DNA of 64,000 bases from Alloascoidea hylecoeti (taxonomy: Eukaryota): NCBI GenBank assembly GCA_001600815.1, contig BCKZ01000014.1, positions 62,001 to 126,000 of the forward strand, in the 5' to 3' direction. Positions 14,764 to 63,604 of this stretch are shown here, in pieces. Every line of letters begins with the position of its first letter. Position 1 is the stretch's first letter. Position numbers and translations under genes: made by a program. The notes under the pieces are model-generated. The model ran no database searches. It was given only the letters and a program-made list of their open reading frames with translations, and was not told the DNA's origin.

Positions 14764-16386
14764 CTATACTTCAACATGTTCAATTTCATTTTTAGTTTCT
14801 TGTAACTTCTTGTCAAGGTATTCTCTATGTTCGTCTTTAACTCCATCACCAAATACTTGGGCAACCTCTTCTAAACTATAACCTCTTGTTTCTGGTAAAA
14901 GAAAGTACGCAATAACAATCTCGAAAGCTAACCAGCAAGTCCAGACTATATAATATTTCCATTCAATACTATCCATTGCAACAGGATTAACAAAACCATT
15001 NAANATACNAGTNANTTGNCNTGTGNAGACAAAAACAAGAACACCTTTAGATCTAAGATTATAAGGTAAAATTTCTGTTAAATATAAGTATGGTAAACCA
15101 CTCAATGCTATATCATAACAGGCATCAAATAAGAAAATCATAGCAAGAACACCATTAGCTAAAGATTTCTGCTCAAAATTTCTCTTTTGATTGTAAGCTG
15201 AAAGAACTGTCCAAATTAGATAACAAACCATCATCGACATTAAACAACCTAAAAACATTTTACGNCTATCTACTTTATTTGTAAGGAATGTTGCGGAAAA
15301 TGCAATAACTTGATTAAAACACATTAATGCTCCATTAATTACTAATTGTGTAACACTTGTTGTTATACCAATAGAATTTAAAACCTTTACTAAATAGTAA
15401 CTAACAAGCGCATTACCTGAAAGTTGCATCATAACTGGAAGNAAAAAAGAAATTAAAAATCTATGAAAATTTGCTCTAGTTTTAAAGAATGTTTTCAATC
15501 CTACTTGTTTTTGTAACTTTTCAAGTTCAATTGCTTGTTGAATTTCATATAATTCAAAATCAATNAATGTANTTGCTTCTTCAGAATNATCATNNCCAGT
15601 NTGATATTTCTTTAAGACATTTCTAGCATCTGATATACGACTTTTTGCAACTAAGTAACGTGGAGATTCTGGTACAAATGGTATAAAAACTAATTGAATA
15701 AATGGTGAAACTGCTTGTATAAGAACTGGAATCCTCCAACACCATGAATTATTAATAAAATAAGTGCCTAAAGTTATCCATGCGGCAATTAAAGCCCCTA
15801 ACCACCAAACTGTATTGAAAATAGATGTTATAATTTCCCTTTGTGCAGGATATACGGTTTCTGAAATGATTGTTGGACATCCAATACCAGATAAAAATAC
15901 TCCACCACCTAGGATAACTCTTCCAACAATGAAACACGCATAACCATTAGCTGCTGTTTGAATTACTACTCCTATAAGCATCATAATTGCACCATATAAT
16001 ATACAGCTTTTTCTGCCATGTGTATCGGAGAGCCAAGTTGAAAACCAACAGGTTAGGAAGAAACCAAATGTCACACCAGATGTAAGCGCTCCAAGAGTTG
16101 TTCCAGATGGATTACCCATATAATCCATCCAAATATCTAGGGATTGCAAGCCGTTCAAAAGAGAACCATCATAACCGGTAGTAGCAGAGGTTAACATTGG
16201 TATAAGTAAAAGCATGTTAAGCTTTAAAAGGTACGGATACTTATACCATGGTTTATCTAACTTTGGTAAAACATCTTGAAGTACTAACGGTTGACCGTTT
16301 AATTGAGATGGTTTTGGATCGTTGAAAGTGTCACTTTCTTTATTTGGGATATCAGTTGCAATTGGTTTATTATCTATGGTATTCAT
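14764..16386 (-). CDS. MFS sugar porter, LAC12/HXT2.x/CDT (lactose/cellodextrin permease) type, copy 1
   Basis: GYDGSLLNGLQ, SDTHGRK, WCWRIP..IQ, PESPRYL, QLSGNALVSYYL and PETRGYSLEE motifs; contains N bases. Confidence 0.9.
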   Translation of the reverse strand: MNTIDNKPIATDIPNKESDTFNDPKPSQLNGQPLVLQDVLPKLDKPWYKYPYLLKLNMLLLIPMLTSATTGYDGSLLNGLQSLDIWMDYMGNPSGTTLGALTSGVTFGFFLTCWFSTWLSDTHGRKSCILYGAIMMLIGVVIQTAANGYACFIVGRVILGGGVFLSGIGCPTIISETVYPAQREIITSIFNTVWWLGALIAAWITLGTYFINNSWCWRIPVLIQAVSPFIQLVFIPFVPESPRYLVAKSRISDARNVLKKYXTXXDXSEEAXTXIDFELYEIQQAIELEKLQKQVGLKTFFKTRANFHRFLISFXLPVMMQLSGNALVSYYLVKVLNSIGITTSVTQLVINGALMCFNQVIAFSATFLTNKVDXRKMFLGCLMSMMVCYLIWTVLSAYNQKRNFEQKSLANGVLAMIFLFDACYDIALSGLPYLYLTEILPYNLRSKGVLVFVXTXQXTXXXNGFVNPVAMDSIEWKYYIVWTCWLAFEIVIAYFLLPETRGYSLEEVAQVFGDGVKDEHREYLDKKLQETKNEIEHVEV

Positions 16387-17675
16387 TTAATTTGAACTTA
16401 TAATCGTAGTGTTATCCTTTTTATTGAATTTTTATATGGTTATAGGAAATATGAAACTTTATATAACAAATTATTTACCCTATAGCATATTAATAATAAT
16501 AAGAATCAATATTCCGGCTATAGAATATTAGAGTCATTCCTTATAAAACATGAAAAACAACTTTTAATCAAAATTGGGAAGCTTGAGTTGTAATAGGAAC
16601 TTAGAAAAGTAATTAATTATAACTAAACACCCCGCGCCGTTTTCCTTAAGGTTATTTATTATAACAAATAATCATATATCATTAGTCTATATAAGATCTC
16701 GTATAAATATATCGGTGTTCCGAAGTTGTTTTTCAAATATCCAATTGCAATTTTCAATTGTGCTAATTAATATACTACAACACTCGAAACATACGCCAAT
16801 TGCCATTAGATAGACATAGTCAGTTTTATACAGCTAATTATTAGCCAATTGTAATATAATATATATGATAGCTATGATTATGGATTATGGTATCCATTAA
16901 AACTACATCTATGGATATAATAATTAATTTTGTTAATATAATAAGAGGTCCCATATTAATTGCATACCATATACGATATTATACGTATATGTGATCAAGT
17001 TAAGGAAGAATAAAACATTAGTAATTGCATCATTAATATTATAATGAATATGAAGAAGCTGTGATCGGAAATATAAAAAAAGATAGATATTAGCATTGGG
17101 ACCTATAGCTATAGCTAAGCCACCATATGCAATGCATTACGCTTCACTAAACTCATCTTAACGTGCATTGACAGAAAACTGAAAGTGGACATTTCTTTTC
17201 AAGCTTGAAGCTCATGAGCCCAATTATATGCTCGCAATGTAAAGTAGACTCAGATATAGATTTAAAAAGCCTACTATACATCTATATATATAAAGATTTC
17301 ATAAATATCAACAATATAGCTATGATACCATCGGAAAATAATGCCGATTACTTTAAAGTATTTTATGTTAATGATTTTATAGACAAATCTATCAATAAAC
17401 CCGTAATCCTAGACACAGTCGAGCGTTCGGTAAGCCCCTGCATTTGTTTTTTAAATTTTACACACCTCCAAAAAACTGATAACTATAGTGTTTTTTTGAC
17501 AAGACCAAATTGTTCCTGAAATAGTTCATAGTGCTCCACAGAAACAGGAGATTCTATTATACTATATAGAATCTAGTAGTAGTGTTGGCACACTTAGCTC
17601 CATACACGGCTGCCACCCACGAGGTACGGTCGTAGAGCTGATGCTAATCATATCAATGCATCAAAGATATCCTGA

Positions 17676-17741
17676 TTCGGATATACCTGAAACTTATATT
17701 ACTATTTGTGGGGAAACTGGAGACTCCTGAAATATTGTATT
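17676..17741. promoter_or_regulatory. Conserved promoter block with Mig1/CreA-type SYGGRG sites (GTGGGG 17708, CTGGAG 17717)
   Basis: Ungapped inverted match to about 44350-44416, with the SYGGRG sites preserved in both copies. Confidence 0.55.
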
Positions 17742-17812
17742 AAAGTGTATACGTATATTATTATTATTATTATTAAGTTAATTTTCCGAATTTTAGTAGA
17801 TATTAGATAATC

Positions 17813-17970
17813 TGGACCACTTGTGCAAACTAGCTCTTAACGATAGTATATCCTGGAGCGGTACTAACGGGTATTGCTTATCGGGGTCAAAAATTGATCG
17901 GCGTAAAATGAGGCATTACCTAGCAAAATTTAACCATAGTTAAGATGTTATTTGCACAAGTGGTGGTCCA
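17813..17970. mobile_element. MITE-like ~158-bp insertion with ~28-bp imperfect terminal inverted repeats
   Basis: Left arm TGGACCACTTGTGCAAACTAGCTCTTAAC; right arm GTTAAGATGTTATTTGCACAAGTGGTGGTCCA. Absent at the paralogous site (about 43890-43915). Confidence 0.6.
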
Positions 17971-18132
17971 CTACGGTATATCTAATTATATCATAATTCT
18001 TATTTCAGAGTAAGCCTAGCTATATATAAGCTTAAGTAAGATAAATGGTCCATCTAATTGTGCTGAACACTCATGTTGGCTATATTCAACCAGTCATAAA
18101 ACTTACAAAGAATATTAAATTTAATATCTAAC

Positions 18133-20711: not shown

Positions 20712-20909
20712 AATAGCGAAGTAGAGAAAGTGAAACCGAGTGATCATGAGTTCACGTATTAATGGCTGTATTTACACCCGGTTCAGCCTAAAGTTGTGAT
20801 TTTGTTTCGGGTCATCTCTCCAAGGCCCATTTCTCCAAAAAACATGCATGGAGCATTTACGGCATGCAAAAGGCCTTTTTTGAATTAAAGAAACCAAAGG
20901 AACATAATA

Positions 20910-21511: not shown

Positions 21512-21676
21512 TTTATGATTATACCTTCCTGAAGTCAAAAAATTGAGTCACTTTTGATTTTCAACCGATCACATGAGATATGTGATAATATTGGTGAAAT
21601 ATCAAGACTTATTAAACTCAGGTTATATTTGATTAAATTATTTAAATTTCTGATGGTTTATATTTGAAAGGATTAT
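21512..21676 (-). repeat. Dispersed ~170-bp repeat R1, copy B
   Basis: Inverted high-identity match to 9348-9520. Confidence 0.9.
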
Positions 21677-22990: not shown

Positions 22991-23779
22991 ATGCAGCTCA
23001 GTATCAATACTCAAGATTATTCAAACGTCATAACAATCTCTTCAAAATGCTATAATACACTTCATTTCCTTGTTTTTCAAAGACACAAACGACTCTTAAG
23101 GTACCTCTTATATCTTTCAACAATTTTTTCTTTTTTCTTCACAATTTTTGGAGTAATAATGATTATAACTTCATTAAATGTATCACAATTAATTGAATCT
23201 CGATTTCAAATCTATATGTTAACAAATGGTCCAAGAGAAAATCAATTAAATTTAAATCAAGTATTTTCAAGTGGGATTGAAATATCAAATGAATTGGTTC
23301 AACAACAAATAGATACATGTTTATCAAAAATGTATACGGATAATAATATTTTTTCCCCAAGTATTATGGCTTATACTTGTAAATATGCAACAGTTTTAGA
23401 AAAATGTCATCAAAGTGGGAAAATGTTATGTTTAATTATGGAAGATGATATTGAATTAATTTTTAAACCATCAATGACTAAATTTTTATTTATTTTAAAT
23501 ACTTTATCATTATATTCAAATGAAGATACAATTTACGATTGTTCAAAACTTGGAATTGGTTGGTTTTCGAGTATTAATTCTGGTAATAAATTACAATGTA
23601 GAATATATCCAAGTATATTTGCTAAAAAAATGTCTGAAGTTTTAATTAAATCTAATTGGCCTGCTGATCTTGCTATTAGAAAAGCAACAGATGATTTAAA
23701 TTTAAAAAGTTCAAGATTTTTAATGATTCAACATACTGGAGGAAAATCAACACTTGGACATAAAAATATAACTTCATAA
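22991..23779 (+). CDS. Type II membrane protein, putative GT-A fold glycosyltransferase (GT25-like)
   Basis: Single N-terminal TM segment (about aa 38-62), CLIMEDDI motif, later WPAD and IQH motifs; followed by a (TTTTCATAAT)n tandem repeat. Confidence 0.5.
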   Translation: MQLSINTQDYSNVITISSKCYNTLHFLVFQRHKRLLRYLLYLSTIFSFFFTIFGVIMIITSLNVSQLIESRFQIYMLTNGPRENQLNLNQVFSSGIEISNELVQQQIDTCLSKMYTDNNIFSPSIMAYTCKYATVLEKCHQSGKMLCLIMEDDIELIFKPSMTKFLFILNTLSLYSNEDTIYDCSKLGIGWFSSINSGNKLQCRIYPSIFAKKMSEVLIKSNWPADLAIRKATDDLNLKSSRFLMIQHTGGKSTLGHKNITS

Positions 23780-29321: not shown

Positions 29322-30944
29322 TTAGAAAGCTTCTAATACACGTAAATTATTTGTATGACCAATACCTTTAGTCCAACCTTGAATAGCAATTAAAACATCC
29401 CCTCTATTTATAATATCAAGTCTTGTTGCTTCATCCATCGCCCATTTAATTCTTTCATCGACATCTTGTTGCCATAAACCTAAAGACAATGGTTGTTCTT
29501 TTGTATATTCAAAAGGATAAACTCCACGACATAAATGACACCATCTAGCAGTTTTTCTATTTCTTGTAACTAATATAATTGGACATGCAGGCCTATGTTT
29601 TGCAACAAGTCTTGCAGTTTCACCAGTATGTGATAAAACAATAATTGCTTTTGCATCTTGTTCAAATGAAGCAGTTACAGCAGACATTGCAACAGTTTCA
29701 GGAGTATCTGTTGGTCTTGGAGTTAAATCTCTAATTTCTTGAGAATATTGTAAATGAGCAATAGCCATTTCTGCTTCTAAAGCAGTTTCATGCATCATTT
29801 GAACAGCTTCAATTGGATAATCACCTTTTGCAGTTTCACCAGATAACATTACACAATCAGCACCATCAAGAATTGCATTACCAACATCAGAAACTTCAGC
29901 TCTTGTTGGTCTTGGATTATAAGTCATTGATTCTAACATTTGAGTTGCACAAATAACAGGTTTACCAGAAATATTACATTTTGCAATTAATTGTTTTTGA
30001 ACAACAAATACTTCATAAGCAGGAATTTCAATACCTAAATCACCTCTTGCAACCATTATACCATCAGCAACTTTAACAATTTCATCAAAATTATTAACAC
30101 CTTGTTGAGATTCAATTTTTGCAATAATTTTAATTTCACGACCTTCATGACCTAAAACATTTCTAATTTCTCTTATATCATTAGCAGTTCTTATAAAACT
30201 TGCAAAAATCATATCAACTTCATTTTTGATACCAAATAAAAGATCATTTTTATCCTTTGTAGATAAAGCAGGTAAATCAACATCAGTTCCAGGTAAATTA
30301 ACACCTTTATGAGAAGAAATATTACCAGCATTTAATGAAATAACATCTAAATTTTCATCATCAATAATATCTAAAACTTGAAATGATAATATACCATCAT
30401 CAACATAAATGATTCTACCAGGTTCTAGCACTTGAGTTATATTTTTATAATCAATAAACATAATCTTATCATCAGATAAATCTTTATATTCAATATTAGT
30501 TGTAAAAATCATTTGATGATTTGCGGGGATTGAATAATCAATACCATCTCTTGTATTACCAGTACGGATCTCGGGGCCTTTTGTATCCAAAGCAATTGCT
30601 AAAGGAGAGCCATGAAAGATAGTTTCAGACTCTCTTGCGTTGTCTATGACGGACTGATGATAAGTATAATCACCATGGGAGAAGTTCATACGAACAATAT
30701 TTAGTCCCGCTATACATAATAATAAAAAGTGGTCAGTATATGTTAAAATGGTAGATTTTTTAAATTAGCAAACAATTCACTTACCCCTTCTTAAATTTGT
30801 AATGACCTCCACACTATTTGACTTTGGACCAATTGTACCAATGATGGAAGACTTCCTTGTATGTCTCTTAATGGAAGCCTGGGGGTCGATGGCAATCAAC
30901 CATTCAATTCTCGAAGCAGAAGTATCAAGTGCAACGCCAGTCAT
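29322..30944 (-). CDS. PYK1: Pyruvate kinase; 2 exons (30944-30785, 30709-29322)
   Basis: Intron GTAAGT..TACTGAC..TAG (30784-30710) joins [13 protein letters not shown] to [13 protein letters not shown]; also [10 protein letters not shown] and MVARGDLG. Confidence 0.95.
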
Positions 30945-39116: not shown

Positions 39117-41047
39117 TATATACGTATACTGTATAAGTTATATTTTAAATTAATTATAAAGGAGTTTAGTTCTGGATCTAAATCTACCACTAACAAACAT
39201 GTAATTATATCAAATTTCTTCCTATTATACATAAATATTCGTCCTTCTACTCCCTTAACCATCAAATAGGGTATGGCCATTGCCCACTAGTAACCTCCCT
39301 CTAATAAGAAACACAACAACTAAAATATTTTTTTTAAATTTAACAATGCCATTAATTGTCCATGTAAAATGTAAATATCTTTAACTCAATTGAAGCCATT
39401 ATTCAATTACAAAAAGGTCTGGATTAACAAAAAAAAAAAAAAAGTCCTAAGCTTATAATTATACATACATACATAGGCCTATATCATGAACAAGTATACG
39501 GGGAGAATATCGAAGAACATTTAGAAAATTGCACAACATTTGCCAACTTTGTGGTAATCACAGTATTTTCCGTGACTTTACGTACCAATTTATGTAAGAA
39601 TTTCTGTAAATCGTAAATCTTGCATACATGTATATTGATTCTTCGAAGTCTGATATTATAAGTTTGATTTAAGATAAAAAAGTAATATATTATATGTTAA
39701 AAGATATCCAGTAGACTTATTGGTACTGTGCTAATTATACTATTGTAGAAATTAACGAATCAAGAACCTATTGGTGCTTAATATGTGATATCAAAGATAA
39801 CGACTAATATATAATAAAACTTGTATCCCTGAAACAAGCGACAAAAGTAAGAGATAAATATTTAAATACGAAGTTACCCGACATTGAGAATGGATCAATT
39901 ATATGTCTTACATCATTAATTATTAATCGAACCTCGCATTTAGTTTATTTTGGACTTTAGAAAGATAGAAAGGGAGCTGAACTATCATAATTGGTTTTTG
40001 TTACTTGTATACCATATATATATAGGCTATACATCAAAAAAAATGGATTACATTACATATCTATAATTGATTGATATGGATGGAAATTGTTAGATTCCAA
40101 GTTTAATATGTGTTCAAATATTTAAATGTTGTATCTCGCACAATGTTGCATTACAATAACGCCCTCTGAGGAAATATCATCAAAAGATATAGAAGCTAAG
40201 TGTAAATACGGTGACCAATTATATATTGTTTTTGAAAGTATCGAAATTAATTTTATTCATAGAAGTTCATAGGCGGTAATTTGGTGCATAGCTAGCGTTA
40301 GGGCGTTCATGTCAGTTTGTTACATCAATCTGTTATAATTTTTTTAGAATTAATTATGTATTTACTTAGTTGTAAGCTTTTTCATTTACGAAGTACTAAG
40401 AAGTTCGAACCAGCTGAGTTCAGACGCCAAATGCTAGCGTTTGTTTAATCTTTATAAAAGAAACTACTAGAGATTCCCTTGTCGGTACCTTTAATATAAT
40501 CAATAAATAAATTTGTTAAATTTTAAAAAATGATTTAGAATTTGTGTTTCTTAGGTGTACATATGGGTGCTCGTGGTTGGTACCACGCTCGTGTTTGGTA
40601 CGTAATTTAGTCTATACGTTTATTTAACATTACGATCCTTAACCACTGTAGTATAAAAGTGGTACAATAGGCAATTGTAACGTATACGTTAAATCTGATA
40701 CAGATATACATGAACATGGATTAATTTGCTACATTCTTATTTTAGGGGAGATTTGAGATAGATCTTAGCTAGCGCTATAGGGTTAACATTCATCGATATC
40801 GTTAATTATCGTTATTTGAAACACTTCTTCAGTGCTTCTTATAAGCTCGTATTATAATATATAAGTTTCTTGTTCAAACTCAATTGCAAGCTTTGGAATT
40901 TTCGCCTTTCAACCACCTCATGTATCAAGGTATCTTCAGATATATATAAGATGAAGTGTTATAAATATAAGAGTGAATTCCCTCTTAGTTTTTTCTATCA
41001 TCAATTGCAGTTTGATTATTATTTGTTTTGCTTTCCTCATAATTATA

Positions 41048-42022
41048 ATGGTTTATTCGAAAACGTACCTGATTCTCCTTGGTGCTTTAGTGAGTGGTTC
41101 ACTTGCTGAGTCTTGCGCAGAACTTTACCAACAATGTGGTGGTGTTTCATGGACTGGAGCAACCTGTTGTGCTTCTGGTACTTGCCAGAGTCAAAATGAT
41201 TATTATCATCAATGTTTACCTGGTACAGATACTACGGCCACAACTAAGGCTGCTACAACAGCTAAAGCTACAACAACCAAGGCTACAACCAAAGCTACAA
41301 CCAAAGCTACAACCAAGGCTACAACCAAAGCTACATCAGTGGCCTCTTCATCATCCTCTTCGTCTTCTTCAGTCAAAGTTATATCTGGTGGTAAGTCTGG
41401 TACTGGTAGTACCACTAGGTACTGGGATTGTTGTAAACCATCCTGTTCTTGGTCCGGTAAAGCTGATGTTTCTTCACCAGTTGCTGCTTGTGCTGCTAAT
41501 GGTGTTACAACTTTGGGAGTTGACGTTCAAAGTGGATGCACCGGAGGTACTGCTTATATGTGCTCGGATCAGCAACCGTTTAAAGTCTCCGATGATTTGG
41601 CCTATGGTTTTGCTGCCGTTTCATTGACTGGAGGTAGTGATGATTCTATGTGTTGTTCTTGTTATCAATTAACCTTCACTGATACCACTCTCGCAGGAAA
41701 GAAAATGATTATTCAAGCTACCAATACTGGTAGTGACTTAAGCTCTAATCAATTTGATCTTGCCATGCCAGGTGGTGGTCAAGGTATTTACTCTGGTTGT
41801 TCATCCCAATGGAGTAGTTATAGTAGTTCCATTTGGGGACAACAATACGGTGGTGTTAGTTCAGCTAGTGCATGCGATGCTTTACCCACTCAAATCCAAG
41901 CAGGCTGTGATTGGAGATTTGATTGGTTTGAGGGTGATGATAATCCAAGTGTTACATTTGAGCAAGTTGTATGCCCAACTGAATTGACCGATATTACTGG
42001 TTGTATTCGAAATGATCAATAA
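41048..42022 (+). CDS. Secreted endo-beta-1,4-glucanase: signal peptide + CBM1 + Thr/Ser linker + GH45 (324 aa)
   Basis: ATG at 41048. CBM1 [34 protein letters not shown]; (TTKA)n linker; GH45 motifs [14 protein letters not shown] and [10 protein letters not shown], with both catalytic Asp present. Confidence 0.95.
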
Positions 42023-42283
42023 ATTGGTGTTAAACCTGTTTTGCTGACTGCAAATTTATAGTTAAGGAATTGTACGATTGTTATGTATCGTATAAATTAT
42101 AAAAAACATTTCTATTATTTTTGTGAATTGATATTTATTTATGGCTCATTATTTATTACTTATTTTAAATAAAATCAAATATTAGTTTATATCTTATAAC
42201 TATATAAATAGCTAGGCATCCAAACCTTCAATGGAATCAATTCGTCCATATAAATTTTCAATGCATGTTCCACATTTGTCCAT

Positions 42284-43711
42284 CTAATTTTCCTTCAAGT
42301 ATTGATTCAACTTTAATCTCTTCTCAACATTTTCAAATTTAAAAGAAGCTGCCAATTCATCTAGATCTTCAAAAGATAATCCTTTGAAATAATCAGCGAA
42401 TTCATACCCCAAATATTGGCCAAGTAAGAGCTCTCTTGTCATTCTGTTCACGTAATCATCTATGGTCCAATTTGATGGATACAATGCTTTATGGTGCTCT
42501 TTGGGAATTACTTCTCTAAAATGATCTCTCAAATCTGAATATAACTTTTCAACCGCGGGATCTGGCTGTGCACCCCATTTATCAACTCCTAAACGTAACT
42601 TCTTTTTTAACCAAGGAGTTAATAATTGATACCATTTGGAAGTCGGAGAAGCATAAACTAGTCCCTGCAAACCAATATCTTTATAACACCAAATAGTCCA
42701 AGAAACCGGTTTATTGTCTCCTGCAGGATCGCCATGATTATACATTTCAATTTGATGATTCAGCAACTTATATCTAGCATCATTTGTCGCTTCAACACCT
42801 TTATCTCCTCTGAATTCTGAGGCATAAACTGGACCAAATTCACCAACATACACTGGTACATTCATTTTTTTCATAAGCGTTATCTTATCATAATATTGTT
42901 TTTTCAATTTTTCATTTTGAAAGTCTGATCCGATGTAAGTCTGATGTCCAGGAAATCCAAGAAGTGAATAATCATGAATAGCATAAACACTATTTGGAAA
43001 AGGCTCCTCTGGAAAATGACTAAAATCCATTGAATATGTATTTGCATCAAGATATAAAATATGATGTGGATCAACCGATCTAATTGCTTTCTCAACTCTT
43101 GAATAGTAGTTAATTAAACGATAATGTTTTGAATCACATGGCTCATTTAAAGTATTGTAACCAGCAATCCAGGTGTTATCCTTATAATGATCAGCAATAA
43201 CTTTCCAAAGATTAACAGCAGCATCTTGGAAATGGCCAAAGTTCCAAAAGATTGCCTTATGAAGTCCATTATCGCAATGCTGATCAGTACCTTGACCACC
43301 AGGAACAGCATGCAAATCAATGATGCAATATATTTGATGTTTTGTACAAATATCAACATATCTATCTAAACGCTTGAACCCTTCAGGTTTAATTTTAAAC
43401 AAATCAGAATCATCAAGAAAATGGCGATAATTAACGGCAATTCTAATACAATTCATACTTAAAGATTTTAAAAATTCAGCATCTTTATCAGTAAAATAGT
43501 ATTCTCTAAACTTTTCAAAGAAATATTCAAATTTTTCTTTCCCTAATACTTTCAATAAAGGTTCTTTATGCTCAGTTTCGGACCCTGCATAACCTGTCAT
43601 GAAGTTCTCCATTAATAAAACACCACCTAAGGCAACTCCCTTTAATACAACTTGATCTCCATTTTCATTAACTATTTTAGTCCCGTTGACTTTTAAAAAT
43701 CCCGTTGACAT
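42284..43711 (-). CDS. Intracellular glycoside hydrolase family 5 (GH5_22 / Scheffersomyces EGC-like)
   Basis: No signal peptide; MENFMTGY, IDLHAVPGGQ, acid/base motif LNEP, nucleophile motif VGEFG, WTIWCYKDIG. Confidence 0.9.
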   Translation of the reverse strand: MSTGFLKVNGTKIVNENGDQVVLKGVALGGVLLMENFMTGYAGSETEHKEPLLKVLGKEKFEYFFEKFREYYFTDKDAEFLKSLSMNCIRIAVNYRHFLDDSDLFKIKPEGFKRLDRYVDICTKHQIYCIIDLHAVPGGQGTDQHCDNGLHKAIFWNFGHFQDAAVNLWKVIADHYKDNTWIAGYNTLNEPCDSKHYRLINYYSRVEKAIRSVDPHHILYLDANTYSMDFSHFPEEPFPNSVYAIHDYSLLGFPGHQTYIGSDFQNEKLKKQYYDKITLMKKMNVPVYVGEFGPVYASEFRGDKGVEATNDARYKLLNHQIEMYNHGDPAGDNKPVSWTIWCYKDIGLQGLVYASPTSKWYQLLTPWLKKKLRLGVDKWGAQPDPAVEKLYSDLRDHFREVIPKEHHKALYPSNWTIDDYVNRMTRELLLGQYLGYEFADYFKGLSFEDLDELAASFKFENVEKRLKLNQYLKEN

Positions 43712-44368
43712 ATTTGATATTAAATACTCTTTGTGTAATACTCTATGACTGGTTGAAAATGTATAGCTAAATATGAGTGTTCAGTAAATATTAAGATTTA
43801 TATGGACAATTTATTGTTTAAATACTTAATTATAAAGATGCTTTGATTTCTCCTTAATTTCACTCTCATATAAGTATTATATAATGTAATCAGATACATG
43901 ACGATAATAGATCATCTTCCAATTGCAATTCGGAAAATTAACTTCCTAGTTTAATAACAGAATTTAATTTGGGCATTTCTAGAGGGTAGAGCTACAGATT
44001 AGTCGTAAAATACAAAATACGGATCTTATAACGTTAATTATAAACTGATAATGCATTTCCAATTTATTCCACTTCTTGTACGTAGTTCATAATTATAAAT
44101 ATTCTTATAATCATCAAGCTCAAATTGTGACATTGGTATCGGACGGACTGTGGATTATAGTATACTAAGTATAGTAAGGAAAATTGATATAACTGCTAAA
44201 TAACTATTATACTTCAAGCAAACATAAAACCCAAATAAATGTGGAACAAGAGATGTTTGGTGTGCCATATATAACTTATCAAGTTATTATTATAATATTA
44301 ATTATATGGAGAATAAAGCGGAAAACTAATAATTATATACAGTGACTAAAATACAATATTGCAGGAAT

Positions 44369-44694
44369 CTCCAGATGCTCCACAAATCATAACATGAGTT
44401 TAAAGGATCTCCGGATATTCTCCACAGATATGTGAGAACCCACATCTAGATATATGTTAAATACCTAGTATTGCGGATTTATTCATATATTTGAATAACC
44501 AATAACAATATAATACTTTAATTATTTTCCGTTTATAACTAATACGTTTTCATGTCTGAATATCTACAATAGATTATACTATTCTACTAATATTGCAAAC
44601 TTAAACCTATATTGAACAGAAATATACGCTTCCAGTTTTCTGTCATATATGCATCAATAATATATAGAGACGAGTGTAAGTGGAGTCACTGGAG
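44369..44694. promoter_or_regulatory. Cluster of six Mig1/CreA-type SYGGRG sites in the divergent GH5/transporter promoter
   Basis: Minus-strand sites CTCCAG 44369, CTCCAC 44378, CTCCGG 44409, CTCCAC 44420; plus-strand sites GTGGAG 44680, CTGGAG 44689; all in very AT-rich DNA. Confidence 0.55.
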
Positions 44695-45757
44695 TGGTGG
44701 CTGAGATCTTAACATTACATTTACCTCTTTATATTTCCGGTCTTGGTTTCTTCACAATCATTATAATATTAATATTGCGATTGAGACTGTTTTATTCTTC
44801 CGGAAGCTTCATAATTATCACGTATAACATCTGCGATTGTTCCATTTAACTTATATTCGAAAATGTATTTTAACTCTTGACAAACATATATCAGATCTAA
44901 AATTAAAATATCCCATTCTTCTTCATTATTGATATTAGGATCATTAATATTAATCATGATTCATGATGAACTAGCTATATATTATAATCAGCTTATGAAA
45001 TAGTTATAAAATTGATATAAAACTGTACTATATAACATGTACAATAGATATATATGTATATAGTATTAGTGTAGCTATAGGCTAAAGCCGCTAAGATGAT
45101 ATATTAATATCATTGTAGGCCTATATGCATCATAACTTCGAAACACCGATACATACTATACGTATAGGACCGAAGGTAAAGAGACTTTTGCTATCGTAAT
45201 ATCAAAATTGTAGAGGGTTTTACTATGTATTACATCATATGATCAAGCTGATTAAGGCTTAAGGTTAGACATATTCATTGATATTTTTAATCTATATATA
45301 ATATTGTTATAAGAGCAAATAAGCATGCGGTGTAATTATAACATTAACAATGAATTACTTTTCATTTCAGCTAAAGCTTTTTAAGTTAAATTAGAAGTTG
45401 TTTTTCATGTTTTATATCTTATGATTAATAACCAATAAACTTGTTTAAACCAATAATTATCATAAATTTAAGTGCATCAGTCGACTCCTAGGCCACAGCA
45501 CTTATATCAGCTTTGGTTATAGCTAGCCTAACAATAACTACAGGATAATAGGATATTATTACCTTTTATAATTAGGTCTAATATTGACCATACAGTATCC
45601 AAAACCGAATGACCTCAATATCTTTTTCCCGGAATATTGAAATCTACTTTTTGATATATGTAGATATAGGGTAAATGAATTATATTTATATATATATAAA
45701 GTTACGTATTTCCTGTAGCAATATAATAATTCAATATAAAGAATAAATTCAAATTAA

Positions 45758-47380
45758 ATGAATACAGAAGATAATGATTCAACGGCAACTGATGTTGCAA
45801 ACAAAGAAAACGTTAATTTCAACAATACAACACCATCTCAATTGAATGGTCAACCGTTAACCCTTCAAGATGTTTTACCAAAGTTAGATAAACCATGGTA
45901 TAAGTATCCGTACCTTTTAAAGCTTAACATGCTTTTACTTATACCAATGTTAACCTCTGCTACTACCGGTTATGATGGTTCTCTTTTGAACGGCTTGCAA
46001 TCCCTAGATATTTGGATGGATTATATGGGTAATCCATCTGGAACAACTCTTGGAGCGCTTACATCTGGTGTGACATTTGGTTTCTTCCTAACCTGTTGGT
46101 TTTCAACTTGGCTCTCCGATACACATGGCAGAAAAAGCTGTATATTATATGGTGCAATTATAATGATCATAGGAGTAGTAATTCAAACAGCAGCTAATGG
46201 TTATGCGTGTTTCATTGTTGGAAGAATTATCCTAGGTGGTGGAGTATTTTTATCTGGTATTGGATGTCCAACATTAATTACAGAAACCGTATATCCTGCA
46301 CAAAGGGAAATTATAACATCTATTTTCAATACAGTTTGGTGGTTAGGGGCTTTAATTGCCGCGTGGATAACTTTAGGTACCTATTTTATTAATAATTCAT
46401 GGTGTTGGAGGANTCCAGNTCTTNTACAAGNNGTTNCNNCNNTTATTCAATTAGTTTTTATACCATTTGTACCAGAATCTCCACGTTACTTAGTTGCAAA
46501 AAGTCGTATATCAGATGCTAGAAATGTCTTAAAGAAATATCANACTGGNNATGATNATTCTGAAGAAGCAANTACATTNATTGATTTTGAATTATATGAA
46601 ATTCAACAAGCAATTGAACTTGAAAAGTTACAAAAACAAGTAGGATTGAAAACATTCTTTAAAACTAGAGCAAATTTTCATAGATTTTTAATTTCTTTTT
46701 TNCTTCCAGTTATGATGCAACTTTCAGGTAATGCGCTTGTTAGTTACTATTTAGTAAAGGTTTTAAATTCTATTGGTATAACAACAAGTGTTACACAATT
46801 AGTAATTAATGGAGCATTAATGTGTTTTAATCAAGTTATTGCATTTTCCGCAACATTCCTTACAAATAAAGTAGATAGNCGTAAAATGTTTTTAGGTTGT
46901 TTAATGTCGATGATGGTTTGTTATCTAATTTGGACAGTTCTTTCAGCTTACAATCAAAAGAGAAATTTTGAGCAGAAATCTTTAGCTAATGGTGTTCTTG
47001 CTATGATTTTCTTATTTGATGCCTGTTATGATATAGCATTGAGTGGTTTACCATACTTATATTTAACAGAAATTTTACCTTATAATCTTAGATCCAAAGG
47101 TGTTCTTGTTTTTGTCTTCACAAGTCAAATAACTAGTATCTTCAATGGTTTTGTTAATCCTGTTGCAATGGATAGTATTGAATGGAAATATTATATAGTC
47201 TGGACTTGCTGGTTAGCTTTCGAGATTGTTATTGCGTACTTTCTTTTACCAGAAACAAGAGGTTATAGTTTAGAAGAGGTTGCCCAAGTATTTGGTGATG
47301 GAGTTAAAGACGAACATAGAGACTATCTTGACAAGAAGTTACAAGAAACTAAAAATGAAATTGAACATGTTGAGGTATAG
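45758..47380 (+). CDS. MFS sugar porter, LAC12/HXT2.x/CDT (lactose/cellodextrin permease) type, copy 2
   Basis: Same motifs as 14764-16386 and nearly identical to it after about aa 26; divergently transcribed from the GH5. Confidence 0.9.
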   Translation: MNTEDNDSTATDVANKENVNFNNTTPSQLNGQPLTLQDVLPKLDKPWYKYPYLLKLNMLLLIPMLTSATTGYDGSLLNGLQSLDIWMDYMGNPSGTTLGALTSGVTFGFFLTCWFSTWLSDTHGRKSCILYGAIIMIIGVVIQTAANGYACFIVGRIILGGGVFLSGIGCPTLITETVYPAQREIITSIFNTVWWLGALIAAWITLGTYFINNSWCWRXPXLXQXVXXXIQLVFIPFVPESPRYLVAKSRISDARNVLKKYXTXXDXSEEAXTXIDFELYEIQQAIELEKLQKQVGLKTFFKTRANFHRFLISFXLPVMMQLSGNALVSYYLVKVLNSIGITTSVTQLVINGALMCFNQVIAFSATFLTNKVDXRKMFLGCLMSMMVCYLIWTVLSAYNQKRNFEQKSLANGVLAMIFLFDACYDIALSGLPYLYLTEILPYNLRSKGVLVFVFTSQITSIFNGFVNPVAMDSIEWKYYIVWTCWLAFEIVIAYFLLPETRGYSLEEVAQVFGDGVKDEHRDYLDKKLQETKNEIEHVEV

Positions 47381-48229
47381 ATATTTATATTTGTTCACGA
47401 TATTATGAATAAGATAGATTTTAGAAACAATAAAACAAAAAATTGGGATTTTTTATTATAAATCTACATACTATAGCTGTAAGGTTATATATGCTCTTTA
47501 GGGGTTTCTTGTTTAACTGTGGGAGCCGTGCCATTCTAGGTATTAAAAGATTCCTACTAATATTTGTTGTGATCTGTTTCATTGCTTTCCCAGAAACTGT
47601 GTGGTAACGCTCTCGAATCTATATTGCTTCGTATTGGATTGGAGAGGCGGTAAACCATTCAATTTTACCAAAATTTGATTTCTACAACTAGCCTTACATT
47701 GTTGATTTGTATTGATTTTGAGAAATAGCATCGGGCATTTCTGTATCTGTCATATTTCAAGCTCTCAAAGTAGATAGTTTATTAATCAACAATAATAAAT
47801 TGGTTTTTTCAAAAATAGGGAGAAACAAATGTTTATATTATACTTAAACCAATCTATTTAAAAATATAAAATATAAATAGAAATCATATATAAATTCTTT
47901 AATATAGATATAAAACAAAAGAATTTATTAATATAAAGAGAGTTGAGCATATGTAATGTAATGCAAAATTTTTCTTTATTCTAATACATTAAGGATTTTG
48001 TTACACTTGTATTTGTCCTCAGTGTTTTGCAAGACATTCTCACAGATTTTATGATGAACAGTTGGAGAGGCTGGAATCGTGGAACGTCAAATATGAGTGG
48101 AAGATGACGCGCATGAGTTTCACTTAATTTCGTCCACTTGATGTACTATGCATACAGCAAATATTGCATTTTTTGTAATTGTGGACTTGCCATATTGGAC
48201 ATGCAAACCCGGGATGAGATACAAGCTTA

Positions 48230-48782: not shown

Positions 48783-50156
48783 ATGTTCTTATACAAAAAT
48801 CTTGAGACAACAATCGATTTTTTTTCCGATCTCTTCCCTATGAAATATCTGAAATAATCTTCTTAGGTTTGCTACCAACAACTTTACTTAATTGTAGAGG
48901 TGTATCTAAATCATGGAAACAAATAGCTGAAAATGATGGTATATGGAAATCAAAGTTTCAAGATCAAAAATCATGGAAATGCTATAATGATGATTCAGAA
49001 ACTGATTCATAGTTAGAATTATACAAGGAACGTTATCCCTTAAATTTTAATTGGAAAAATGATAAATTCACAAAACATAATTTAAGTGGTCATTCTTCTA
49101 AAACATGTTGTTATAAATTTTATAAAAACTGGATTATAACTGGTTCAAAAGATTGTACAATAAGAATTTGGGATAATGAAACTTTTCAATGTTTAAGAGT
49201 GTTAGGAAATCTAAACCATGAGCTTTTTAGACCTCTAATATTAAACAACGGATTGTTAGAACTAATAGAAAAGAATGATACCACATTTCATTTCGATAGT
49301 GTTACACATATGGATATTAATGATAAATGTTTGGTTTCTGGTTCATTAGATGGCTCTTGGATAACTTGGAAATTACCAGATTTTAGACCGATAGATCGTC
49401 TGATATTACCATTACAAGGAAATATTTTGTGTATTCAAATGGTGTTGCTTTATACAATGAGTATATTATATGTTTTGGATATGAATTTATGGGGTTTTGG
49501 AAATCAAGCCTTGATAATTTGGAACATCGGTTACAATTTAATTTACAACTCGTTATAAAAGGAAAAGATGGGATAGATGGTATTCGCATTCACAATGGTA
49601 TTATATATGGTAGAGTAAATGATCAATACTTATGTTAGTAACTACAACACACTAACAGTTCTAGATTTACAAACAAATGAAACAATTACATTACCGAATG
49701 AAGTAACACATAAAGGACCAGTTCCATTATTTATAGTTAATAATAAGATGATTACTGTTAATCTGTATTGTACTATTACGATATTGAATAAAGAAGATCT
49801 AATATTATTTAAAGAATTTAAAAATTTAGAAGATAAATAATCAGTTTTATGGCCTGCTTCAGTTGATGGCGATTCAAAAAGATTAGCAACTTTTACTATG
49901 GATATGGTAATGTTGTTTATGATTTTACTAAAAATCTAAGGAAAAAATGTTTAAAACATTTATAATCTATTTAGGATTGAAATTTGAAAAAAAATATTGT
50001 TTGCTTAAAGGATTTTCAATTAGTACTATTAACCCTCCATTATTAGGAAACTGTGGCAAGTTTAATATTAATGTAACAAGGGATCATAATGGAAACCTAT
50101 TTTGTGTATTGATGAAGAATGAAGTTGTCGATATTGCTTTCCAACCTTATCGGTGA
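48783..50156 (+). pseudogene. F-box/WD40 pseudogene
   Basis: F-box LPYEISEIIF..LLNCRGVSKSWKQIA..IWK; WD40 repeats GHSS...IITGSKDCTIRIWD and LVSGSLDGSWITW. Frameshift near 48830, in-frame TAG at 49010, further frameshifts downstream. Confidence 0.8.
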
Positions 50157-62800: not shown

Positions 62801-63604
62801 ATGTTATCAAAATTATTACCACCAATAAATAGAATAATACATCCTAAAATTATTCGTCAATTTTCAACTAATTCTTTTATTTTAAAACAAAAAGATATAA
62901 AAGATCAATTTGAAGAAAATTTAAATTTAAATTCAAAATCTATTAAAAAACCAAATTTATTCCCAGGTAATTCAAATTCTAATTTAGACATTAAATCACA
63001 AGTCAAATCACATATTAATGATGATTTAAAAACAATTAAAAAGAAAAATATTCAAATTCCAAAAGAAATAAAAATTTTATATGATTTAAAAGAATCAAAT
63101 AATTCAATTTCTAATTCTTCAGAATCAATTGATTCTAATATTGAATCTAATTCAAAATTAAACATTTTAAAAGAACAAATTCCAACAGAATCAACAGATA
63201 TTAAAGCTATTTTTACAGAAATTAACCAAAATGAAACAACTAATCCATCAAAACCAATTATAAACAACCAACAATCTAAACCAATTAAAGAACCATCAAC
63301 ACCATTACATGATATAATAACATCACCTCCTTCATACTCAGCCCCAAAGAAAGAAATATCCCCTCATGTAAGTAATATATTATCACCAAAAACATCTATA
63401 ACCATAATTAATTAACTAACTGAATAAATATAGGCACTTTTATATATTCATTGGACAAAACCATTAATTAGAGTCCTTGGAATTTCATTTGGTACTTATT
63501 ATTTATTACTTGCATTTTGGCAATTTTTAGAAAATACAGACGATGAAACAATTGAAATTGAAAGATTAAAAAAATTAAAAAATAAATCTATTGTTGAAAA
63601 ATAA
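62801..63604 (+). CDS. Mitochondrial single-pass membrane protein, possibly INA17-like; 2 exons (62801-63367, 63434-63604)
   Basis: Presequence-like N-terminus; intron GTAAGT..AACTAAC..TAG; spliced C-terminus SPHALLYIHWTKPLIRVLGISFGTYYLLLAFWQFLE (TM segment) plus a charged tail. Confidence 0.6.

What the first reader, a model, noticed from the sequence alone, without database searches (positions are those of the whole stretch)
41048..47380. Three-gene cellulose/beta-glucan utilisation cluster in a yeast: secreted CBM1-GH45 + cytosolic GH5 + cellodextrin-type transporter
Seen: three contiguous genes encoding a secreted cellulose-binding endoglucanase with intact catalytic Asp residues, a signal-less GH5, and a LAC12/CDT-type porter transcribed divergently from the GH5. 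Known: GH5(EGC)-HXT2 pairs occur in Scheffersomyces stipitis, CDT/HXT2-type porters import cellodextrins, and CBM1-bearing cellulases are rare in budding yeasts (Komagataella Cel45A is an exception). Inference: this is a self-contained cut-import-hydrolyse module, analogous to a bacterial polysaccharide-utilisation locus, formed by adding an extracellular cellulase to a GH5-transporter pair. I do not know of this three-part arrangement having been described.
Basis: partly seen in the sequence, partly recalled or inferred. Interest (0 to 1): 0.9.

Follow-up and report, generated by a model that had tools for sequence, protein, structure and literature searches.

The report
Yeast cellulase beside sugar-import gene pair
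A wood-associated budding yeast carries a secreted cellulose-cutting enzyme gene right next to a widespread transporter-plus-intracellular-glycosidase gene pair, a plausible but unproven variant of sugar-utilisation clusters already known in yeasts.

Summary
The three genes are real and sit exactly where stated: a secreted CBM1-GH45 endoglucanase (41048-42022 +), a signal-less GH5 (42284-43711 -) and a sugar porter (45758-47380 +) transcribed divergently from the GH5.

The porter-GH5 half is a known, widely conserved pair. The GH5 belongs to subfamily GH5_22. The porter is 45% identical to Scheffersomyces stipitis HXT2.4. The same divergent pair occurs in S. stipitis (HXT2.4-EGC2-BGL5, HXT2.1-EGC3), in five named fungi by consecutive locus tags, and in a metagenomic yeast contig.

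The three-part "cellulose module" reading is only partly supported:
- The characterised GH5_22 enzymes are exo-beta-xylosidases with no CMC activity. The model of this protein matches a solved GH5_22 exo-beta-xylosidase at TM 0.90.
- No other locus I could inspect has GH45 beside the pair; the one eukaryotic syntenic locus has a GH3 beta-glucosidase there instead.
- GH45 is tail-to-tail with the GH5 and shares no promoter words with the pair.
- No expression data could be obtained.

GH45-CBM1 genes also occur in Ascoidea, Ambrosiozyma, Geotrichum, Dipodascopsis and Komagataella.

A second porter copy lies at 14764-16386; its coding sequence appears homogenised by gene conversion.

Verdict: a new variant of a known kind of cluster, of modest interest.

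The parts
41048..42022 (+). Secreted CBM1-GH45 endoglucanase gene, 324 aa. Signal-peptide-like aa 1-20 (41048-41107). CBM1 aa 26-53 (41123-41206). Thr/Ser/Ala/Lys-rich linker aa 58-118. GH45 catalytic domain aa 120-319 (41405-42004), with Asp127 and Asp237.
   Evidence: The tree places it with unnamed P0001, two Ascoidea rubescens and two Ambrosiozyma monospora proteins.
42023..42283 (.). 261-bp tail-to-tail (convergent) spacer between GH45 and GH5. It holds the 3' ends only, so no promoter can be shared here.
   Evidence: Coordinates. It contains 0 Mig1-like sites and 0 CGG triplets.
42284..43711 (-). Cytosolic GH5 subfamily 22 glycosidase gene, 475 aa, without a signal peptide. Catalytic Glu190 (NEP) and Glu291 (GEFG). 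It has a C-terminal helical subdomain.
   Evidence: AlphaFold2 model pLDDT 91.5; best PDB match 9ku5, a GH5_22 exo-beta-xylosidase, at TM 0.90.
43712..45757 (.). 2,046-bp divergent intergenic region, presumed to be the shared promoter of the GH5 and porter copy 1.
   Evidence: It holds 6 Mig1/CreA-like SYGGRG sites (2.9/kb, against 0.92/kb in other intergenic DNA of the window). It is collinear at 60-77% identity with the upstream region of porter copy 2.
45758..47380 (+). Sugar porter copy 1, 540 aa, an MFS sugar porter of the HXT2.x type. It contains 18 N bases.
14764..16386 (-). Sugar porter copy 2, 540 aa, a paralogue outside the finding's coordinates. The nucleotide repeat spans 14737-16401 against 45743-47407, inverted, at 96.3% identity.
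   Evidence: 25 of the 39 mismatches lie in the first 150 nt.
16412..18127 (-). Upstream region of porter copy 2. It is homologous and collinear with the GH5-porter intergenic region but has diverged to 60-77% identity. No GH5 relic lies beyond it.
   Evidence: blastn, word size 7. (tblastn of the GH5 against the window finds only 42287-43711).

Best explanation
The locus is a conserved two-gene import-and-hydrolyse unit that happens to lie next to a secreted cellulase in this yeast.

**The two-gene unit.** It consists of an HXT2.x-type sugar porter and a cytosolic GH5_22 exo-glycosidase, transcribed divergently from a 2-kb shared promoter.

**The neighbour.** It sits tail-to-tail with a separately promoted, secreted CBM1-GH45 endo-beta-1,4-glucanase of the yeast/Mucorales-like type with an N-terminal CBM1.

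**Proposed working**
- Shown from sequence: the GH45 is exported, binds cellulose through CBM1 and has both catalytic Asp residues.
- Inferred from PpCel45A: it releases cellobiose to cellotetraose.
- Inferred from 45% identity to the cellobiose transporter HXT2.4 and from family membership: the porter takes up short beta-1,4-linked oligosaccharides.
- Inferred from every characterised GH5_22 and from the fold match: the GH5_22 trims imported oligosaccharides from the end inside the cell. Its preferred substrate is more probably xylo-oligosaccharides, perhaps with side activity on gluco-oligosaccharides.

**Reading.** The pair is a genuine functional unit of a known kind. The GH45 is a plant-cell-wall neighbour whose functional and regulatory coupling to the pair is possible but not shown.
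For: **The pair is conserved.**
- 17 named taxa have both a GH5 hit and a porter hit.
  - 5 have consecutive locus tags: D. fabryi AC631_00899/00900/00901, Priceomyces PRCAT00003471001/3472001, Scytalidium g5525/g5526, Cosmosporella Fc.00g104540/104550, and C. lusitaniae CLUG_01179/01180.
  - 3 share a scaffold length.
  - 9 do not.
- 8 further unnamed contig-length matches occur between the two lists.
- Metagenomic yeast contig L001 has porter(-)/GH5(+) divergent, followed by a GH3.
- S. stipitis has HXT2.4-EGC2-BGL5 and HXT2.1-EGC3 (PMC2784038).

**Porter identity.** It is 45% identical to HXT2.4. HXT2.4 is reported as a cellobiose transporter (PMC7204792 passage).

**GH5_22 identity and activity.**
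- It is 55-69% identical to yeast GH5 proteins.
- The fold match to the 9ku5 GH5_22 exo-beta-xylosidase is TM 0.90, against 0.55 or less for all other GH5 structures.
- GE39 shows 55 U/mg on pNP-xyloside, 11 U/mg on pNP-glucoside and nothing on chromogenic cellulose.
- WcXyn5_22A acts on pNP-xyloside and weakly on xylan, with no CMC activity.
- The Trichomonascus GH5_22 is induced 94-fold on xylan.

**GH45.** PpCel45A gives G2-G4 products (PMC3247070 section 9).

**Separate promoters.** The layout is convergent. The GH45 upstream region has 0 Mig1-like sites against 6 in the pair's promoter. None of the 16 ten-mers shared by the two porter promoters occurs among the 3 shared by the GH45 upstream region.
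Against: - Adjacency of a cellulase to an oligosaccharide import unit in a yeast with few such genes is unlikely to be pure chance, which favours some coupling.
- In S. stipitis the EGC genes respond to cellobiose and sit with beta-glucosidases, so a gluco-oligosaccharide role for this GH5_22 cannot be excluded.
- GE39 does have pNP-glucosidase side activity.
- No enzyme closer than about 57% identity to this GH5 has been assayed, as far as my reading shows.
- The promoter-motif comparison uses motifs defined in other fungi and is weak evidence.
- Synteny in the nearest relatives could not be examined.
Confidence: 0.6

Rival explanations
1. One reading: a true three-part cut-import-hydrolyse module for cellulose or beta-glucan. 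The GH45 releases cellodextrins, the porter imports them and the GH5_22 cleaves them in the cytosol. All three are co-regulated, and the GH45 takes the place that a GH3 beta-glucosidase holds in other yeasts.
For: - The three genes are immediate neighbours within 6.3 kb, among housekeeping genes.
- Yeast GH45 PpCel45A yields cellobiose and cellotriose as end products.
- HXT2.4, 45% identical to the porter, is a reported cellobiose transporter.
- S. stipitis EGC, HXT2 and BGL genes are clustered and cellobiose-responsive.
- In L001 and S. stipitis the slot downstream of the GH5 holds another beta-glucan-related enzyme, a GH3.
- GE39 has pNP-beta-glucosidase side activity.
Against: - The assayed GH5_22 enzymes prefer xylosides and lack CMC activity.
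- The structural match is to an exo-beta-xylosidase.
- No beta-glucosidase (GH1 or GH3) is among the 21 ORFs of 150 aa or more scanned in the window.
- The GH45 adjacency was seen in 0 other loci. L001 has none within 10 kb either side. I saw no equal contig length between the 120 GH45 hits and the 120 GH5 hits.
- The closest GH45 relative P0001 is on a 24.5-kb contig, while the closest GH5 relative P0122 is on a 7.7-kb contig.
- No Ascoidea rubescens GH5 appears in the top 120 GH5 hits, although that species has two GH45 genes.
- The GH45 promoter shares no words or Mig1-like sites with the pair's promoter.
Confidence: 0.27
2. Pure coincidence of neighbourhood. The pair serves xylo-oligosaccharide use only. 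The GH45 is an unrelated retained ancestral cellulase that was never selected to lie beside it.
For: - The xylan and xyloside data for GH5_22.
- GH45 genes in yeasts are described as sporadically retained ancestral genes (PMC4479816 passages).
- The two units have separate promoters.
- The second porter copy sits among unrelated genes, showing that these genes do move about.
Against: Three plant-cell-wall genes in a row are improbable under random placement. This could not be quantified without the genome. Family members CDT-2 and relatives handle both cello- and xylodextrins (PMC3930720 and PMC4338637, abstracts in the search listing only).
Confidence: 0.1
3. Assembly artefact or foreign DNA. 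The scaffold is chimeric or not from a yeast, so the adjacency is not biological.
For: The run holding most words is a metagenome and may be the source. N bases and a collapsed-looking duplicate show some assembly uncertainty in the porter.
Against: - Three runs of one named organism, from two studies, hold 0.94-0.96 of the sampled 31-mers across 41000-47400, intergenic junctions included.
- GC content is even, at 0.20-0.37 over the whole window.
- The flanks encode FAS1, pyruvate kinase, ACS, PRS and VPS5. Their best solved relatives are fungal FAS beta chains and entry 1a3w.
- All three genes group with budding-yeast sequences.
Confidence: 0.03

Closest known systems
Scheffersomyces (Pichia) stipitis HXT2.4-EGC2-BGL5 and HXT2.1-EGC3 functional gene clusters (Jeffries and Van Vleet 2009, PMC2784038)
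   Same: A divergently transcribed HXT2-type porter and a GH5 'EGC' gene. The porter here is 45% identical to HXT2.4. The GH5 here is 57-58% identical to Scheffersomyces 'endo-1,4-beta-glucanase' proteins.
   Different: The third member here is a secreted CBM1-GH45 endoglucanase lying convergent to the GH5. In S. stipitis it is a tandem GH3 beta-glucosidase. PMC3247070 states that S. stipitis has no GH45. No expression data exist for this locus.
GH5_22 exo-beta-xylosidases: Geobacillus thermodenitrificans GE32/GE39 (PDB 9ku5/9kua; PMC6020330), Wickerhamomyces canadensis WcXyn5_22A and Phanerochaete PcXyl5 (PMC10269524)
   Same: The full-length fold matches at TM 0.90. The catalytic Glu pair is conserved. 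There is no signal peptide. The C-terminal helical subdomain is present.
   Different: Only 33-36% identity to the bacterial enzyme. The substrate of this yeast enzyme is untested. Relatives in S. stipitis respond to cellobiose.
Komagataella (Pichia) pastoris PpCel45A and other yeast GH45s (Geotrichum candidum, Ascoidea rubescens, Ambrosiozyma monospora)
   Same: N-terminal CBM1, a Ser/Thr linker and a subfamily-A-like GH45 catalytic domain. The gene is intronless, with yeast or Mucorales-like affinity.
   Different: One CBM1 here. PpCel45A has five. By QCGG motif count, P0001 has two and A. rubescens P0002 has four. No neighbouring porter or GH5 has been reported for those genes in the passages I read.
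Neurospora crassa cellodextrin/xylodextrin pathway (CDT-1/CDT-2 with intracellular beta-glucosidase or beta-xylosidase)
   Same: The logic is the same: extracellular endo-enzyme, MFS oligosaccharide porter, intracellular exo-glycosidase (PMC7204792 passages; PMC5591001 passages; PMC3930720 and PMC4338637 from the listing only).
   Different: As far as I recall, those genes are not clustered. The intracellular enzymes named in the passages are GH1; that the xylosidases are GH43 is my recollection. Identity of this porter to CDT-1 or CDT-2 was not measured here.
Bacterial polysaccharide-utilisation loci
   Same: An analogy of function only: cut outside, import, finish inside.
   Different: There are no SusC/SusD-type genes, no operon and no linked regulator in the window. 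The genes have separate eukaryotic promoters.

Membership tests
GH45 endoglucanase (subfamily-A-like, with CBM1) | Full-length match to the GH45 catalytic domain profile | tested here: met
   PF02015, E 1.7e-75, profile positions 2-213 of 214. PDB hits at E 1e-72 to 1e-85.
GH45 endoglucanase (subfamily-A-like, with CBM1) | Two catalytic Asp residues, in the YWDCCK and FDLxxPGGG motifs | tested here: met
   Asp127 and Asp237 are present and aligned to solved enzymes. The equivalence to Humicola EGV Asp10/Asp121 numbering is recalled, not taken from a call.
GH45 endoglucanase (subfamily-A-like, with CBM1) | CBM1 cellulose-binding module and secretion signal | tested here: met
   PF00734, E 5.7e-11, aa 26-53. 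The segment aa 20-57 holds 6 Cys. The hydrophobic N-terminus is judged by heuristic only.
GH45 endoglucanase (subfamily-A-like, with CBM1) | Endo-beta-1,4-glucanase activity | not testable with these tools
   Needs expression and a CMC, beta-glucan or PASC assay.
GH5 subfamily 22 | GH5 (beta/alpha)8 catalytic domain with the NEP acid/base and a nucleophile Glu | tested here: met
   PF00150, E 1e-30. E190 and E291 are invariant in a 34-sequence alignment. They match Glu191/Glu294 of WcXyn5_22A.
GH5 subfamily 22 | Closest solved or characterised relative is a GH5_22 member, over the full length including the C-terminal helical part | tested here: met
   9ku5/9kua at E 7e-78 by sequence. TM 0.90 by fold against 0.55 or less for other GH5. 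The PDB title names it a GH5_22 exo-beta-xylosidase.
GH5 subfamily 22 | Formal CAZy/dbCAN subfamily assignment | not testable with these tools
   No dbCAN library is held. Indirect support: two Sugiyamaella lignohabitans hits at 64-66% identity, and that species is listed with GH5_22(2) (PMC8254220). The T. vanleenenianus hit TRVA0_001S00320 (60%) is named GH5_22 in PMC13130702.
GH5 subfamily 22 | Exo-beta-xylosidase (or other) activity | not testable with these tools
   Needs assays on pNP-glycosides and oligosaccharides.
HXT2.x / CDT-type oligosaccharide sugar porters (MFS) | Full-length sugar-porter profile match | tested here: met
   PF00083, E 1.9e-80, profile positions 3-452 of 452.
HXT2.x / CDT-type oligosaccharide sugar porters (MFS) | Groups with HXT2.4 and with GH5_22-linked porters | tested here: met
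   45% identity to HXT2.4. In the FastTree of 123 rows, GH5-linked porters lie in both halves of the family and the window clade sits inside it. Limits: SH-like support only and midpoint root.
HXT2.x / CDT-type oligosaccharide sugar porters (MFS) | Similarity to N. crassa CDT-1/CDT-2 or K. lactis LAC12 | not tested
   Those sequences were not among the stored hits, and I did not type outside sequence.
HXT2.x / CDT-type oligosaccharide sugar porters (MFS) | Transport of cellobiose, cellodextrins or xylodextrins | not testable with these tools
   Needs an uptake assay in S. cerevisiae.
S. stipitis-type EGC/HXT2/BGL functional cluster | Porter and GH5 'EGC' adjacent and divergent | tested here: met
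   The same layout occurs in L001.
S. stipitis-type EGC/HXT2/BGL functional cluster | GH3 beta-glucosidase in the cluster | tested here: not met
   No GH3 or GH1 among the 21 window ORFs of 150 aa or more that were scanned. Intron-split genes could be missed.
S. stipitis-type EGC/HXT2/BGL functional cluster | Co-induction by the substrate | not testable with these tools
   None among the window ORFs. The analogy is functional only.

The most novel reading that the evidence does not exclude
In this wood-associated yeast lineage, an ancestrally retained CBM1-GH45 cellulase has been recruited next to the ancient porter-GH5_22 pair. There it replaces the usual GH3 beta-glucosidase. The result is a co-regulated, self-sufficient three-gene unit that lets a budding yeast feed directly on amorphous cellulose or mixed beta-glucans. 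That would make it a eukaryotic, PUL-like metabolic gene cluster for a polymer. It would also imply that this GH5_22 has shifted, or is broad enough, to cleave cellodextrins.
Probability: 0.25. Interest if true: 0.6.

Novelty: new variant of a known kind. Interest (0 to 1): 0.33.

Why it matters
If the trio is co-regulated, it would be a compact, transferable three-gene cassette for consolidated bioprocessing. It would also be an example of polymer-level metabolic gene clustering in a budding yeast.

Even on the conservative reading, the locus adds three things:
- It shows how widely the porter-GH5_22 pair is conserved across Ascomycota. That makes GH5_22 a strong candidate for the missing intracellular step of oligosaccharide use in many yeasts.
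- It adds another lineage to the short list of yeasts keeping a CBM1-GH45 cellulase.
- It offers a clean test of whether GH5_22 enzymes act on xylo- or gluco-oligosaccharides in vivo.

Tried and rejected
- **Whole-genome search.** No genome is held for this window. CAZyme counts and a chance estimate for the adjacency were therefore impossible.
- **Expression.** No RNA holder was listed for 41000-47400.
- **Laying reads.** Nothing was laid and I did not try again, so contig continuity was not seen directly.
- **Synteny in near relatives.** The tool that fetches contigs for a protein is closed. The genome collection holds prokaryotes only. The single metagenome scan gave one eukaryotic locus (L001) and seven bacterial-type or short loci.
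- **Bacterial GH5_22-like loci.** L002-L006 sit with GH42, GH2, M24 peptidase, ABC transporter, aldo-keto reductase and sugar kinase genes. At 35-39% identity I judged this uninformative for the yeast enzyme's substrate, beyond 'cytosolic, downstream of import'.
- **Promoter motifs.** CGG-N11-CCG and CGG-N5-CGG were absent from all three promoter regions. GGCTAR counts were too low to interpret.
- **Horizontal transfer of the GH45 from Mucoromycota.** The tree groups it with other yeast GH45s rather than inside Mucoromycota. That tree is FastTree only, so this is not firmly excluded.
- **Alternative CUG decoding.** Only 1 CTG codon occurs in GH45 (codon 8), 1 in the GH5 (codon 317) and none in the porters. 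It does not affect the reading.
- **tRNA genes.** None in the window.
- **Earlier findings of this scan.** Nothing was returned by place, by sequence or by words.
- **Literature searches for a described GH45+GH5_22+porter cluster.**
  - 'GH45'+'Ascoidea': 0 papers.
  - 'GH45'+'Saccharomycotina'+'CBM1': 7 papers, listing only.
  - 'GH45'+'GH5_22': 15 papers, listing only.
  - 'budding yeast'/'GH45'/'endoglucanase'/'gene cluster': 168 papers holding at least 3 of the terms, 12 listed.
  - None of the listed titles or abstract starts describes such a cluster.
  - Subscription journals, and supplements I did not open (for example the CAZyme tables of PMC8254220), could hold it.

Full report
**What is there**

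*GH45, 41048-42022 (+), 324 aa.*
- It has a hydrophobic, signal-peptide-like N-terminus ([20 protein letters not shown]).
- A CBM1 lies at aa 26-53 (PF00734, E 5.7e-11).
- A linker of about 60 residues follows, rich in Thr, Ser, Ala and Lys.
- The GH45 catalytic domain lies at aa 120-319 (PF02015, E 1.7e-75, profile positions 2-213 of 214).
- Both catalytic-Asp motifs (YWD127CCK, FD237LAMPGGG) are intact. They align with solved GH45 endoglucanases 5h4u, 6mvi, 2eng and others at E 1e-72 to 1e-85.

*GH5, 42284-43711 (-), 475 aa.*
- It matches Pfam Cellulase (PF00150, E 1e-30).
- Its catalytic domain begins at residue 5, so it has no signal peptide.

*Porter, 45758-47380 (+), 540 aa.*
- It is a full-length sugar porter (PF00083, E 1.9e-80).
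- Its DNA contains 18 N bases.

*Layout.*
- The GH5 and porter are divergent across 2,046 bp.
- GH45 and GH5 are tail-to-tail, 261 bp apart.

**Surroundings and host**
- The rest of the window encodes ordinary core genes. They include an amino-acid permease, a cap-binding-complex MIF4G protein, pyruvate kinase, acetyl-CoA synthetase, VPS5, ALG6/8, PRS, SRR1 and FAS1.
- GC content is an even 0.20-0.37.
- No transcription-factor gene and no GH1 or GH3 gene is among the 21 ORFs of 150 aa or more that I scanned. Short-ORF scans of the flanking gaps add only a fragmented F-box/WD40 gene.
- FAS1 and pyruvate kinase match solved fungal FAS beta subunits and entry 1a3w best.
- The nearest named relatives of all three genes are budding yeasts.
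- CTG codons are very rare: 4 in seven genes.
- The 6.4-kb stretch is held at 0.94-0.96 of sampled words in three runs of one named (coded) organism from two studies. It is held at 0.97 in a wood-decay metagenome run that may be the source.
- I therefore regard a chimeric or non-yeast origin as unlikely. I could not lay reads to see contigs directly.

**The GH5 is a GH5_22 enzyme**
- Its best hits are 55-69% identical proteins of 475-482 aa from Sugiyamaella, Trichomonascus, Dipodascopsis, Babjeviella, Kuraishia, Scheffersomyces, Debaryomyces, Clavispora and others.
- The Trichomonascus vanleenenianus hit TRVA0_001S00320 is named GH5_22 in PMC13130702, where it is induced 94-fold on xylan.
- Sugiyamaella lignohabitans is listed with two GH5_22 genes (PMC8254220), and two Sugiyamaella hits appear.
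- By sequence, the only close solved structure is 9ku5/9kua (E 7e-78, full length).
- An AlphaFold2 model built on a 34-sequence alignment has pLDDT 91.5 and pTM 0.92.
  - It matches 9ku5 at TM 0.90. That entry is titled 'substrate bound GH5_22 exo-beta-xylosidase'.
  - Every other GH5 structure scores TM 0.55 or less.
- Glu190 (NEP) and Glu291 (GEFG) are invariant. They correspond to Glu191/Glu294 of WcXyn5_22A.

**What GH5_22 enzymes do**
- Geobacillus GE39 is more than 94% identical to GE32, the protein of 9ku5. It hydrolyses pNP-beta-xyloside (55 U/mg) and, less well, pNP-beta-glucoside (11 U/mg). It shows nothing on chromogenic cellulose or xylan (PMC6020330).
- Wickerhamomyces WcXyn5_22A acts on pNP-xyloside and weakly on xylans, with no activity on CMC. 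Its modelled active site looks blocked on the positive side, suggesting exo-action. The same passage cites PcXyl5 of Phanerochaete as a beta-xylosidase (PMC10269524).
- 126 of 332 surveyed budding yeasts have GH5_22 genes (PMC10269524).
- In S. stipitis, however, the 'EGC' genes of this family respond to cellobiose and sit with beta-glucosidases (PMC2784038).
- I conclude that the enzyme is a cytosolic exo-glycosidase for imported beta-1,4 oligosaccharides. Xylo-oligosaccharides are the better-supported substrate, and gluco-oligosaccharides are not excluded.

**The porter and its link to the GH5**
- The porter is 45% identical to P0325. P0325 is XP_001387757, which PMC4381506 labels Ps_HXT2.4.
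- HXT2.4 is cited as a cellobiose transporter in PMC7204792.
- PMC2784038 Table 2 lists HXT2.4-EGC2-BGL5 (divergent, tandem) and HXT2.1-EGC3 (divergent) as functional clusters.
- The link is general. 17 named taxa appear in both the GH5 hit list and the porter hit list.
  - 5 have consecutive locus tags: D. fabryi, Priceomyces carsonii, Scytalidium lignicola, Cosmosporella sp. and C. lusitaniae.
  - 3 share a scaffold length: Dipodascopsis uninucleata, S. amazonensis and Suhomyces tanzawaensis.
  - 9 do not.
  - Only the best 120 of each list are shown, and contig lengths are a soft criterion.
- Eight further unnamed contigs have matching lengths in both lists.
- The one eukaryotic locus I could fetch is L001, from a 158-kb metagenomic yeast contig whose GH5 is 57% identical. 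It shows porter (-), GH5 (+), then a GH3-PA14 beta-glucosidase (+), which is the S. stipitis arrangement.
- In a FastTree of 123 porters, the GH5-linked ones are spread over the whole family. The association is therefore old or recurrent.

**Is the GH45 part of the unit?**

Evidence for:
- It is the immediate neighbour.
- The biochemical logic is sound. PpCel45A, the characterised yeast GH45, ends at cellobiose and cellotriose (PMC3247070 section 9). These are the substrates of an HXT2.4-like porter.

Evidence against, or missing:
1. No other locus shows it.
   - L001 has no GH45 within 10 kb either side.
   - By eye, no contig length is shared between the 120 GH45 hits and the 120 GH5 hits.
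   - The closest GH45 relative (P0001, 84% over the catalytic domain) is on a 24.5-kb contig. The closest GH5 relative (P0122, 69%) is on a 7.7-kb contig.
   - Ascoidea rubescens has two GH45 genes but no GH5 among the top 120 GH5 hits.
2. The convergent layout means GH45 needs its own promoter.
   - Its 1.9-kb upstream region has 0 Mig1/CreA-like sites. The pair's promoter has 6, the second porter's upstream region has 6, and the background is 0.92/kb.
   - It shares none of the words conserved between the two porter promoters.
   - These motifs are borrowed from other fungi, so this is weak evidence.
3. There is a possible substrate mismatch with GH5_22, as set out above.
4. No expression data exist.

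**Origin of the GH45**
- In a FastTree of 121 sequences, the window protein groups with P0001, two A. rubescens and two Ambrosiozyma monospora proteins (SH-like support 94). The Geotrichum clade lies nearby. All are separated from Mucoromycota and Pezizomycotina.
- By QCGG motif position, 54 of the 121 sequences have the CBM1 motif on the N-terminal side, including all of these yeast and Mucoromycota sequences. 19 have it on the C-terminal side.
- This fits retention of an old fungal gene in scattered yeast lineages, as proposed for Geotrichum (PMC4479816). It fits recent transfer less well.

**The second porter copy**
- A 540-aa paralogue lies at 14764-16386 (-).
- The nucleotide repeat covers only the CDS plus 15-27 bp (45743-47407 against 16401-14737, inverted, 96.3%).
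- 25 of the 39 mismatches fall in the first 150 nt, and only 1 falls between nt 751 and 1350.
- The 2-kb upstream regions are collinear but only 60-77% identical.
- This pattern indicates an old duplication of porter plus promoter, with later gene conversion of the coding sequence.
- N bases at the same positions in both copies suggest the assembler could not separate them there.
- There is no GH5 relic next to copy 2.

**Comparison and verdict**
- The locus works like the S. stipitis EGC/HXT2/BGL clusters and, in logic, like the Neurospora cellodextrin/xylodextrin pathway.
- It is a member of the porter-GH5_22 pair class.
- It differs by having a secreted CBM1-GH45 where other yeasts have a GH3.
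- I found no description of this arrangement in four literature searches (listings only). The library lacks many subscription papers, and I opened no supplements.
- I rate it a new variant of a known kind.

Noticed in passing
window 14737-16401 versus 45743-47407: An inverted, CDS-sized duplicate of the porter at 96.3% identity, 29 kb away. Mismatches are concentrated in the first 150 nt, and N bases fall at the same codons in both copies. The promoters are homologous but only 60-77% identical. This suggests gene conversion, and such inverted repeats could also mediate inversion of the 29-kb segment between them.
   Followed up: partly
window 48806-50156 (+): An F-box plus WD40-like coding region is split over at least four overlapping or adjacent reading frames (48806-49012, 49013-49558, 49387-49638, 49619-49840, 49932-50156). 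It may be a gene with introns, a frameshifted pseudogene or sequencing errors.
   Followed up: no
window 21512-21681 / 9344-9518 and 9874-10015 / 3449-3601: Two pairs of short dispersed inverted repeats (179 bp at 86%, about 150 bp at 83%) in intergenic or gene-edge DNA. Their nature is unknown.
   Followed up: no
window 29322-30689 (-): The pyruvate kinase ORF starts at the position aligned to residue 50 of the solved chain 1a3w. A 5' exon upstream of an intron is probably missing from the simple ORF call.
   Followed up: no
window 18663-20747 (-), 22991-23779 (+), 6574-7047 (+), 62801-63415 (+): Four ORFs of 157-694 aa have no Pfam match at E 0.001. The 694-aa one lies directly beyond the upstream region of porter copy 2.
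   Followed up: no
L003 14-5988, L005 5865-12597, L006 143-5637, L004 1683-4723: Bacterial-type GH5_22-like genes (35-39% identical) recur in a conserved order: GH42 beta-galactosidase, then GH5, then M24 peptidase, then (where the contig reaches that far) GH2. In L005 an aldo-keto reductase and a GFO/IDH oxidoreductase gene lie between GH42 and GH5. L004 ends inside the GH5. In L002 the GH5 follows an ABC sugar-transporter operon. This suggests a cytosolic oligosaccharide-trimming role in bacteria too.
   Followed up: partly
window 10001-12000: The lowest GC in the window (0.20) coincides with the ALG6/ALG8-family glycosyltransferase ORF and its flank.
   Followed up: no
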